Shown here one piece after another: positions 54,100 through 57,139 of a DNA stretch of 64,000 nt. The position numbers were made by a program, and so were the translations under genes. Source of the stretch: Mustelus asterias (Eukaryota); the NCBI RefSeq assembly GCF_964213995.1, contig NW_027590136.1, forward strand, positions 1,364,001 through 1,428,000, written 5' to 3'. Under the pieces are notes generated by a model. It saw only the letters and a list, made by a program, of their open reading frames with translations, ran no database searches and was not told where the DNA came from. Every line of letters starts with the position of its first letter. Positions within the stretch are counted from its first letter, which is position 1.

Positions 54100-56895
54100 A
54101 TTCCCACTTGATATTTCCCAACTCTACCCATACAGGCTCCACGTTGTCAGAGCTAATATCCTTGCTCACTACTGTGTTAATTTCCTCTTTAACCAGCAGT
54201 GCCATTCCACCACCTTTTCCTTTATCCCTGTCCTTCCCAAATATTGAATACCCTGAGACATTCAATTCCCACCCCTGGTCACCCTGCAGCCATGTGAAGG
54301 ATAAATATGGCAAGTTTAGGGAACCTTGGATAACGAGAGATATTGTGAGTCTCGTCAAAGAGAAAAGGGAAGCACTTGTCAAGGCTGGGAACACATGAAG
54401 CAAGTGTGGAATATATAAAGAGCAAGAGGGTAGCCAGGGACAGGGTTGGCCCACTCAAGGACAGGGGAGGGAATCTCTGTATGGAGCCAGAGGAAATGGG
54501 CGAGGTATTAATTGAGTACTTTGTGTCAGTATTCACCAAAGAGAAGGAGTTGGTGGATGATGAACCTGGGAAAGGATATGTAGATAGTTTGAGTCATATT
54601 GAGATCAAATAGGAGGAGATATTGGGGTTTTTGAGAAACATTAAGGTAGACAAGTCCTCAGGGCCTAATGGGGTATCAGTATTGGGACCACAATTGTTCA
54701 CGATTTACATAGATGATTTGGAGTTGGGGACCAAGTGTAGTGTGTCAAAATTCGCAGATGACACTAAGATGGGTGGAAGAGCAAAGTATACAGAGGATGC
54801 TGAAAGTCTGCAAAGGGATATAGATAGTCTAAGTGAGTGGGCAAGGGTCTGGCAGATGGAGTACAATGTTGGTAAATGTGAGGTCATCCATTTTGGCAGG
54901 AATAACATCAAAATGGACTCTTATTTAAATGGTAAAAAATTGCAGCATGCTGCTGTGCAGAGGGACCTGGGTGTCCTTATGCAGGAATCTCAAGGAGTTG
55001 GTTTGCAGGTGCAGCAGGTAATTAAGAAGACAAATAGAAGTTTGTTCTTCATTGCTAGAGGGATGGAGTTTAAAAACAGCGAGATTATGTTGCAGCTGTA
55101 TAAGGTGCTGGTGAGGCCACACCTGGAGTACTGTGTACAGTTTTGGTCTCCTTACTTGAGAAAGGATAGACTGGCACTGGAGGGGGTGCAGAGGAGATTC
55201 ATGAGGTTGATTCCGGAGTTGAGAGGGTTGGCTTATGAGGAGAGACGAAGTAGACTGGGGCTATACTCATTGGAATTCAGAAGAATGAGGGGAGATCTTA
55301 TAGAAACATATAAGATTATGAAGGGAATAGATAAGGTAGAAGCAGGGAAGTTGTTTCCACTGGCGGGTGAAACTCGAACTAGAGGGCACAGCCTCAAAAT
55401 AAGGGGGAGCAGATTTAGGACTGAGTTGAGGAGGAACTTCTTCACACAAAGGGTTGTGAATCTGTAGAATTCCCTGCCCAGTGAAGCAGTTGAGGCTACC
55501 TCATTGAATGTTTTTAAGGCAAGGATAGATACATTTTTGAACAGTAAAGGAATTAAGGGTTATGGTGAGCGGGCGGGTAAGTGGAACTGAGTCCACAAAA
55601 AGATCGGCCACGATCTTATTGAATGGCAGAGCAGGCTCGAGGGGCCAAATGGCCTATTCCTGCTCCGAGTTCTTATGTTCTTATACCCCAAAGTACTGAG
55701 AGAGGCAAGGGAGGAAATTGCTGGAGCCTTGAGAGAAATCTTTGTATCCTCACTGGCTACAGGGGAAATCCAGTAAGAAGTTTAACAACACCAGGTTAAA
55801 GTCCAACAGGTTTATTTGGTAGCAAAAGCCACACTCAGTGTGGCAATGAGGGGATTTTCACAGTAACTTCACTGCAGTGTTAATATAAGTCTACTTGGCA
55901 AATGGAGTTTAACCCGGATAAATGTGAGGTGATTCATTCTATGTTCTAATGTGATGAGGACCATCAGAGAGTACAGCAGGATATTTCCGTTGAAATTATC
56001 CACAAAAGCTGATGAAGGACATTCATTTAACCCTGGATAGTAAATAGTGTTTTTCCTCCCACTACAGGTTTGGTGTGGCTTTTGCTACCAAATAAACCTG
56101 TTGGACTTTAACCTGGTGTTGTTAAACTTCTTACTGTGTTTACCCCAGTCCAACGCCGGCATCTCCACATCATGACTACAGGGGAAATCCCAGAGGATTA
56201 GAGAATAGCCAATGTTGTTCCTTTGTTTAAGAAGGGTAGCAAGAATAATTCAGGTAATTACAGGCCGGTGAACCTTATGTCAGTGGTAGGGCAATTATTG
56301 GAGAGGATTCTTCGAGACAGGATTTTCTCCAACTTGGAAATAAGTGGACGTATTAGCGAGAGGCAACATGGTTTTGTGAAGGGGAGGTCATGTCTGACTA
56401 ATTTGATCGAGTTTTTCGAGCAAGTGACGAAGATGATTGATGAGGGTAGGGTAGTGGATGTTGTCTACATGGACATCAGTAAGGCCTTTAACAAGGTCCC
56501 TCGTGGCAGACTGGTGCAGAAGGTAAAGTTGCATGGGATCAGAGGTGAACTGGCAAGGTGGATACAGAACTGGCTCGATCATAGAAGACAGAGGGTAGCA
56601 GTGGAAGGGTGCATTTCTGAATGGAGGGCTGTGACAAGTGACGTTCCTCAGGGATGAGTGCTGGGACCTTTCTGTTTGTAATATATATCAATGATTTGGA
56701 GGAAAATGGAACTGGATTGATTAGAAAGTTTGCGGATGACACAAAGGTTGGTGGATTTGCAGAATGTTGGTGGATTTGCAGTGGATGAGGTGGAGGGCTG
56801 TTGTAGGCTGCAAGGCGACATAGATAGGATGCAAAGCTGGGCTGAAAAATGGCAAATGGAGTTTAACCCGGATAAATGTGAGGTGATTCATTCTA
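54100..56895 (+). mobile_element. Nested CR1 fragments (younger 3' copy ~54672-55684 inside an older ORF2 fragment)
   Basis: ORFs 54376-54612, 54622-55467 and 56223-56657 carry RT motifs; the host frame SSGPNG..YPKVLRE is split by the inner copy. Confidence 0.85.
55771..56179. mobile_element. Composite insertion bounded by inverted Penelope termini, 15-bp TSD
   Basis: 64-bp inverted repeats at 55771-55834 and 56073-56136; CTACAGGGGAAATCC at 55757-55771 and 56176-56190. Confidence 0.85.
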
Positions 56896-57139
56896 TGTTC
56901 TAATGTGATGAGGACCATCAGAGAGTACAGCAGGATATTTCCACTGAAATGATCCACAAAAGCTGATAAAGGACATTCATTTAACCCTGGATAGTAAATA
57001 GTGTTTTTCCTCCCACTACAGATCGATGTACAATAAATACATTTGTCTCTGTTCCATTGAGTCTACAGCACAGGGCCGGGCCAGTCGGCCCAATTGGTCT
57101 GTGTCATTGCCACACTGAGGCGCCTGTTTGGGTACACCT

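What the first reader, a model, noticed from the sequence alone, without database searches (positions are those of the whole stretch)
55757..57021. Penelope-ended insertion that captured a 172-bp copy of DNA from ~950 bp downstream
Seen: a CR1 frame (SSLATGEIPED) is split by TSD CTACAGGGGAAATCC. Inside are an inverted Penelope end (55771-55834), ~60 bp of unrelated sequence, a direct copy (55896-56067) of 56850-57021 with about 4 mismatches, and the forward Penelope end plus tail. The copied piece spans a CR1/non-CR1 junction, so it looks like local DNA rather than a dispersed repeat, and it ends in CTACAG, the same hexamer that starts the TSD. Inference: template switching during Penelope integration copies neighbouring genomic DNA or RNA and packages it between inverted termini, a route to local duplication and MITE-like cargo elements.
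Basis: partly seen in the sequence, partly recalled or inferred. Interest (0 to 1): 0.7.

Follow-up and report, generated by a model that had tools for sequence, protein, structure and literature searches.

The report
Penelope insertion patched with nearby DNA
A short Penelope jumping-gene insertion carries, between its two back-to-back ends, two pieces copied from opposite strands of DNA 0.7 and 1.1 kb away, likely made as a patch while the insertion was sealed; other insertions of the family carry similar local patches, and this one spread only by duplication of the whole region.

Summary
Confirmed and extended. The 172-bp copy is real (4 mismatches). The 'unrelated' 60 bp is a second local copy: 64 bp, reverse-complemented, from a SINE tail present in 12 of 12 paralogues but mostly deleted in the window. 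The locus is one of at least 13 duplicated copies in a zinc-finger cluster: 9 are empty sites, 4 carry the whole composite on one shared haplotype. So this is one insertion event, not a mobile cargo element. It recurs: of 16 other insertions with at least 30 nt of foreign filler in a genome-wide search, 15 have a donor within 2.3 kb; about 2-7% of sampled insertions carry such patches. Both arms stop at the predicted hammerhead cut, where arm ends are about 9-fold enriched over one control position. Best reading: both cut ends were extended by the Penelope enzyme and the two new ends joined by microhomology-guided copying of nearby DNA. Like L1 templated insertions, but donors lie 160-2,050 bp away rather than within 15 bp. 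The scan noted this kind before on other DNA, in this and other genomes.

The parts
55757..55771 (+). Left copy of the target-site duplication (15 bp at most; outer bases shared with the element)
   Evidence: single in 9 of 9 empty paralogues
55771..55834 (-). Inverted, tail-less Penelope arm; inner end at the predicted hammerhead cut
55834..55897 (-). Cargo piece 1: 64-bp reverse-complement copy of the downstream SINE 3' tail
   Evidence: 64/64 in 11 of 12 paralogues; 100% only in this duplicated locus family
55896..56067 (+). Cargo piece 2: 172-bp direct copy of 56850-57021; overlaps piece 1 by 2 bases (TG)
56068..56072 (.). 5-nt filler GTTTG, possibly a snap-back copy from the arm itself (inferred)
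56073..56179 (+). Forward Penelope arm from the predicted hammerhead cut through the tail (last 4 bases overlap the right duplication)
56176..56190 (+). Right copy of the target-site duplication
56850..57021 (+). Donor of piece 2: CR1 fragments joined to a stretch conserved downstream of zinc-finger exons (from 56937)
57104..57119 (-). 16-bp remnant of the donor of piece 1 (SINE tail); the rest lost in a 263-bp deletion with TCA microhomology at 57104-57106
55685..56760 (+). Decayed CR1 fragment that hosts the insertion (family name recalled; right end approximate)
   Evidence: sequence; frame SSLATGEIPED in empty copies
51287..52348 (+). C2H2 zinc-finger reading frame upstream; its sense strand is the + strand

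Best explanation
The insert has two back-to-back Penelope ends inside one target duplication and two pieces that match DNA 0.7 and 1.1 kb away on opposite strands; it likely formed in one event, in which both cut ends were likely extended by the Penelope enzyme up to the predicted ribozyme-cut end of its RNA and the two new ends were likely joined by microhomology-guided copying of nearby DNA. Shown: structure, donors, empty sites, single origin, recurrence. Inferred: (1) the nuclease cuts both strands 12-15 bp apart; (2) one end primes at the tail start, the other at the second start, giving a tailed and a tail-less arm; (3) both cDNAs run off at the same RNA 5' end, leaving two identical, non-complementary 3' ends; (4) these find short matches in nearby DNA, copy 64 and 172 nt, and meet at a 2-nt overlap; (5) the region later duplicated. 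The polymerase (host end-joining enzyme or the Penelope RT working on DNA) is not identified.
For: Empty sites in 9 of 13 paralogues; the 4 filled ones share 19 SNPs absent from all 9 empties between -1,016 and +355, so one event. Both pieces are locus-specific: full-length 172-mer at 17 places, all paralogues; 64-mer at 100% at 17 places, all in this duplicated family, best outside 97% over 61 nt. Recurrence: 15 of 16 gap-pattern events have a donor within 2.3 kb (14 at 95% or more); 4 of 75 arms ending at the cut on C1 and 1 of 50 arms running past it have clear local cargo; random 50-150-bp pieces give such a hit at an unrelated site in 1 of 279 trials. Donors fall on both sides and both strands about equally (5/5/4/3, one unclassed). 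The arm end GCCACAC plus T recurs on the + strand at the edge of the SINE donor while the copied piece is the opposite strand: a U-turn that needs both strands, hence DNA; three other events show 6-7-nt direct matches of the arm end to the donor (L169, L195, L198 imperfect). Partner arms of cargo events are not more eroded than cargo-less ones (within 2 nt of the cut: 11 of 17 vs 14 of 40, p 0.047). In vitro an anole PLE cuts and extends both strands and starts at two sites spanning the tail (PMC11167929).
Against: No step is seen directly. The order of the two pieces is simplest if each arm copied one piece off the + strand, which is the sense strand of the upstream zinc-finger gene, so an RNA template fits too. 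Pol theta patches are generally under 25 bp and flank the break (PMC12426944 passages); these are 43-240 bp and 160-2,050 bp away. SNPs cannot show that the donor was the same chromosome copy: the one shared allele is ancestral. Two cargo bases differ from all 13 donors: copying errors or later mutation. One event (L187) has no donor within 10 kb. The hammerhead is identified by motif only: no Rfam hit, and the single-copy fold does not give it (z 0.51).
Confidence: 0.63

Rival explanations
1. Same timing, but the Penelope RT jumped from the end of its own RNA onto a nascent transcript of the locus; each arm copied one piece from the + strand RNA.
For: Both pieces can be read off the + strand if each arm made one; + is the sense strand of the zinc-finger gene 3.4 kb upstream and part of the donor is sequence conserved downstream of such exons. 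One L1 case of a co-inserted local pre-mRNA is reported (PMC10191854 passage).
Against: The inverted 7-8-nt match of the arm end at the SINE donor is unexplained by a one-strand template. Transcription of this stretch was not shown. Donors stay within about 2 kb on both sides, whereas a transcript might offer more distant donors.
Confidence: 0.24
2. A plain palindromic Penelope insertion came first; its hairpin later broke or stalled a fork and was repaired with local templated DNA.
For: Near-perfect 60-bp inverted arms with tiny spacers are common and such palindromes are fragile (general knowledge). L137's patch carries a slippage and several patches are multi-part.
Against: 0 of 13 paralogues has arms without cargo. 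Cargo events keep arms intact to the cut more often, not less (11 of 17 vs 14 of 40).
Confidence: 0.1
3. The composite is a mobile MITE-like element, or its cargo came from dispersed repeats or another paralogue.
For: Sub-pieces are repeats: the last 85 bp has at least 22 other copies at 92-94% and the SINE tail many at 94-97%. A paralogue as donor cannot be excluded by SNPs.
Against: The composite appears only with its own flanks. The junction-spanning 172-mer and the exact 64-mer occur only in this locus family. The one outside place with both parts in order is 73% identical overall and is a separate SINE insertion. At other loci the best donor found lies beside the insert.
Confidence: 0.03

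Closest known systems
Endonuclease-bearing Penelope-like insertion units with inverted pLTR and optional tail (PMC8557442, PMC3846280: passages; PMC11167929: parts 1-2 of 4 and one passage)
   Same: Inverted 5'-truncated copy next to the element, 30-40-bp tail on one side, target duplication, RT plus C-terminal GIY-YIG, hammerhead motif. PMC3846280 notes host spacers and unrelated sequences captured between pLTRs in a rotifer.
   Different: The passages seen do not trace the captured DNA to the flank of the insertion. PMC11167929 found uncleaved RNA the main substrate in vitro and no RNA-seq ends at the ribozyme cut, whereas arm ends pile up there in this genome.
Templated insertions at somatic L1 insertions (10.1101/2024.08.27.596794, PMC11702581, PMC10191854: passages)
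   Same: Non-element DNA under about 250 bp copied from near the site during integration; twin priming with end joining of two cDNAs.
   Different: L1: 22 cases among about 3,600 insertions, templates typically within 15 bp of the site. Here about 2-7% of sampled insertions, donors 160-2,050 bp away, in the middle of a head-to-head palindrome, inherited. That preprint's supplementary figure on distances could not be seen.
5' extra nucleotides of zebrafish LINEs derived from flanks (PMC4245944, passages)
   Same: Flank-derived filler at the last-made junction of a retrotransposon.
   Different: Several nucleotides at a 5' junction, not tens to hundreds of bases between two cDNAs.
Pol theta templated insertions (PMC12426944, passages)
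   Same: Minimal microhomology, iterative multi-piece patchwork, filler of unclear origin.
   Different: Generally under 25 bp and taken from right beside the break.

Membership tests
EN+ Penelope-like element | Single ORF with RT and C-terminal GIY-YIG | tested here: met
   Sister copy L066 with the same arms has a 915-aa open frame: RVT_1 E 4e-10; GIY-YIG E 5e-5, above cut-off, when the C-terminal 184 aa were scanned (not listed in the whole-protein scan). The insert itself has no ORF.
EN+ Penelope-like element | Inverted pLTR, tail on one side, target duplication | tested here: met
EN+ Penelope-like element | Hammerhead ribozyme in the pLTR | tested here: inconclusive
   Core motif with a palindromic helix III is in sister copies (consensus recalled, architecture as in PMC4209133 passages); no Rfam hit; monomer fold does not show it; activity untested.
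Penelope clade (Poseidon versus Neptune) | RT phylogeny and linker motif | not tested
   No tree built; earlier scan notes disagree on the label.
Local templated insertion at a retrotransposon junction | Extra sequence maps near the site and is absent from the empty allele | tested here: met
   recurrence
Local templated insertion at a retrotransposon junction | Template within about 15 bp of the site (as typical for L1) | tested here: not met
   660 and 1,130 bp here; 159-2,053 bp in 18 others. Patches under 20-30 nt were not mapped systematically.
Pol theta-mediated end joining | Dependence on Pol theta | not testable with these tools
   Needs a knockout assay.
MITE / Pack-type cargo element | Same composite at unrelated loci with new target duplications | tested here: not met
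   4 places, all with shared flanks; search scored 40 of 2,933 candidates.

The most novel reading that the evidence does not exclude
Penelope in this genome often reverse-transcribes ribozyme-cut RNA from both ends of a double-strand cut, and the open intermediate lasts long enough to sample DNA 0.2-2 kb away on either strand, writing hundreds to over a thousand inherited local micro-duplications: a fossil read-out of the unknown final step of Penelope integration and genomic evidence that the pLTR hammerhead cuts in vivo.
Probability: 0.5. Interest if true: 0.65.

Novelty: new variant of a known kind. Interest (0 to 1): 0.45.

Why it matters
How Penelope elements finish integration, and whether their ribozyme ever cuts in vivo, are open questions (PMC11167929). 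These junctions give a countable genomic signature for both: patch length, donor distance and strand, and the pile-up of arm ends at the predicted cut. They also add a small but steady source of local duplication. This single insert is inert: it lies in dead CR1 sequence and does not move by itself.

Tried and rejected
Rfam scan of 45,000-58,000: nothing above threshold. Monomer fold of the ribozyme region: unremarkable. CTACAG as a general priming rule: 14 events average 3.4 shared nt vs 3.6 in 182 mismatched pairs, 5 of which reach 6; kept only as a possibility for this event. Cis versus paralogue donor by SNPs: uninformative. Link between cargo and ribozyme-cut arms: 4 of 75 vs 1 of 50, p 0.65, not supported. 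Outside locus with both cargo parts (C23): separate SINE insertion. My recall that Penelope priming uses target microhomology was wrong; PMC11167929 reports the opposite. Sequencing runs: no RNA holder listed; no reads or contigs were laid, so the junctions rest on the assembly alone (four contigs, two of them 99.9% identical over 10 kb). Rows dropped before counts: in the gap-pattern set 61 hits gave 50 events, 23 with 20 nt or more unmasked; 7 dropped (L152, L160, L190 self-repeats; L193 Penelope interior; L167, L211 short; L196 duplicate of L195). In the C1 set L076 and L082 (two separate insertions), L087 (Penelope ORF) were dropped and L135 (33 nt, high-copy repeat, 52 hits in 37 loci) left ambiguous. 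In the control set L241 (later nested insertion) and L256 (satellite-like 52 nt) were not counted; 12 of 15 events without a script-found duplication were rechecked. Literature: 8 searches listed no paper on flank-derived patches at Penelope junctions or on genomic arm ends at the ribozyme cut; the library lacks most subscription papers.

Full report
Observation. The copy differs from its donor at 4 of 172 bases.

Context. The window is part of a C2H2 zinc-finger cluster with five arrays in a 3.7-Gb vertebrate genome; the repeat names CR1 and SINE and a shark-like origin are recalled, not tested. A genome search with the 172-mer gave 17 full-length matches at 97-100% (40 of 1,575 candidates scored). 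These are 13 paralogous copies of the region: 4 carry the insertion, 9 are empty and hold the target once. The 4 filled copies share 19 SNPs absent from all 9 empty ones, so the insertion happened once and then spread with its flanks. Two of the four are 99.9% identical over 10 kb and may be one locus.

The missing piece. The '60 bp of unrelated sequence' (55834-55897) is the reverse complement of a SINE tail lying about 300 bp beyond the end of the first donor in 12 of 12 paralogues: 64/64 in 11, 62/64 in one. The window copy lost it in a 263-bp deletion, leaving 16 bp. At 100% the 64-mer occurs at 17 places, all in this duplicated family; the best outside hits are 97% over 61 nt (40 of 935 candidates scored). 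The cargo is therefore two local pieces from opposite strands, 660 and 1,130 bp from the cut in the empty allele, overlapping by TG. The whole composite was found only in the 4 paralogues, which rules against a mobile cargo element as far as that search reaches.

The element. [quoted passage not shown] Exact arm-end words number 47,675 where the arm runs on past the predicted hammerhead cut and 2,442 where it diverges there. In the first 100 of those hits (95 events) 75 truly end (70 by script, 5 re-called by eye). At a control position 4 nt away there are 502 hits, of which 12-13 of 30 end. That is roughly 1,900 against 200-220, from one control position only. Both arms of this insert end on that base. 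The cut position rests on the recalled hammerhead consensus and on the architecture in PMC4209133; neither Rfam nor folding confirms it.

Survey. Of the 75 events, 5 have 30 nt or more of foreign filler; 4 match their own flank at 96-99% within 0.8 kb with nothing comparable in the other loci of an 82-locus control set, and 1 is a high-copy repeat (21 of the 95 events had only 1.5 kb of flank). Four genome-wide gap patterns (spacers of about 47-170 nt) gave 50 events, 16 with such filler after the drops listed under Tried and rejected; 15 have a donor within 2.3 kb (14 at 95% or more) and one has none within 10 kb. One event is in both sets. Where the cargo is a repeat the local copy beats the best control copy, narrowly in two cases (98.1 vs 95.0%; 100 vs 96.0%). 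Among 50 arms that run past the cut, one has a two-piece inverted patch of about 430 bp from 0.3-1 kb away. Random pieces give such a match at an unrelated site in 1 of 279 trials. For 18 events the gap to the insert edge is 159-2,053 bp, median about 435, with no bias for side or strand. Rates: 4 of 75 (95% interval 1.5-13%) and 1 of 50 (0.05-11%).

Mechanism. PMC11167929 (parts 1-2 of 4 read) shows a PLE protein that cuts and extends both strands and starts at two sites spanning the tail. That accounts for a tailed and a tail-less arm facing each other. Two cDNAs of the same sense cannot anneal, so their ends need end joining; many insertions do it with 0-7 nt of filler, and a few percent copy nearby sequence. 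Here the arm end plus one base recurs on the + strand at the SINE donor's edge while the copy is of the other strand, a U-turn that needs duplex DNA; the 5-nt filler at the other junction can be read as a snap-back on the arm followed by a 4-6-nt match to the donor (post hoc). The CTACAG shared with the duplication may have served as a primer here but is not a pattern in 14 other events. An RNA template remains possible because both pieces can be read from the sense strand of the upstream zinc-finger gene. Later repair of a palindrome is less likely: no paralogue has arms without cargo, and cargo events have less-trimmed arms (p 0.047, small sample chosen by pattern).

Comparison. It works like L1 templated insertions (22 cases among about 3,600, typically within 15 bp of the site), LINE 5' extra nucleotides and Pol theta patches, and differs in donor distance, size and position between two cDNAs. 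Capture of host DNA between pLTRs is noted in a rotifer without tracing it to the flank. My 8 searches listed no paper with this Penelope pattern; a 2026 preprint on animal retrozymes showed nothing on it in the passages seen. Earlier notes of this scan describe the same kind on other DNA; my reading was fixed before I saw them.

Verdict. Real, insertion-coupled local patch; new variant of a known kind; not a cargo-carrying mobile element. Interest 0.45.

Noticed in passing
genome-wide: Penelope arm ends are about 9-fold enriched at the predicted hammerhead cut over one control position 4 nt away, suggesting ribozyme-cut RNA is a template in vivo.
   Followed up: partly
window 45904-46200 (approx.): Second young Penelope insertion: about 260-bp inverted arm joined to only 16 nt of tail, with a 12-bp duplication.
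   Followed up: no
window 57104-57106: 263-bp deletion with 3-bp microhomology, private to the window copy among 13 paralogues; it removed most of the second donor.
   Followed up: yes
window 25700-26500, 37000-37900, 42200-43100, 51400-52300, 61400-62100: Five C2H2 zinc-finger arrays; the region is segmentally duplicated at least 13 times with mosaic haplotypes.
   Followed up: partly
L147 (G000:C1 about 746,400): Two-piece, about 430-bp inverted local patch between arms that both end about 37 nt past the cut.
   Followed up: yes
L171, L178, L201, L202, L087: Spacers made of the Penelope ORF start or tail, i.e. jumps within the element's own RNA downstream of the priming site.
   Followed up: no
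L138, L152, L160, L161, L162: Spacers built of iterated arm-end words, typical of repeated priming and release.
   Followed up: no
L066:1207-3951: Uninterrupted 915-aa Penelope frame with 99.6% identical arms: a very young copy.
   Followed up: partly
window 15029-15727: 233-aa open frame resembling a ribosomal protein uL13 retrocopy (recalled, not tested).
   Followed up: no
empty site (L007:821-846): The target reads CTG, 16 bases, CAG, matching the symmetric motif proposed in earlier notes.
   Followed up: partly
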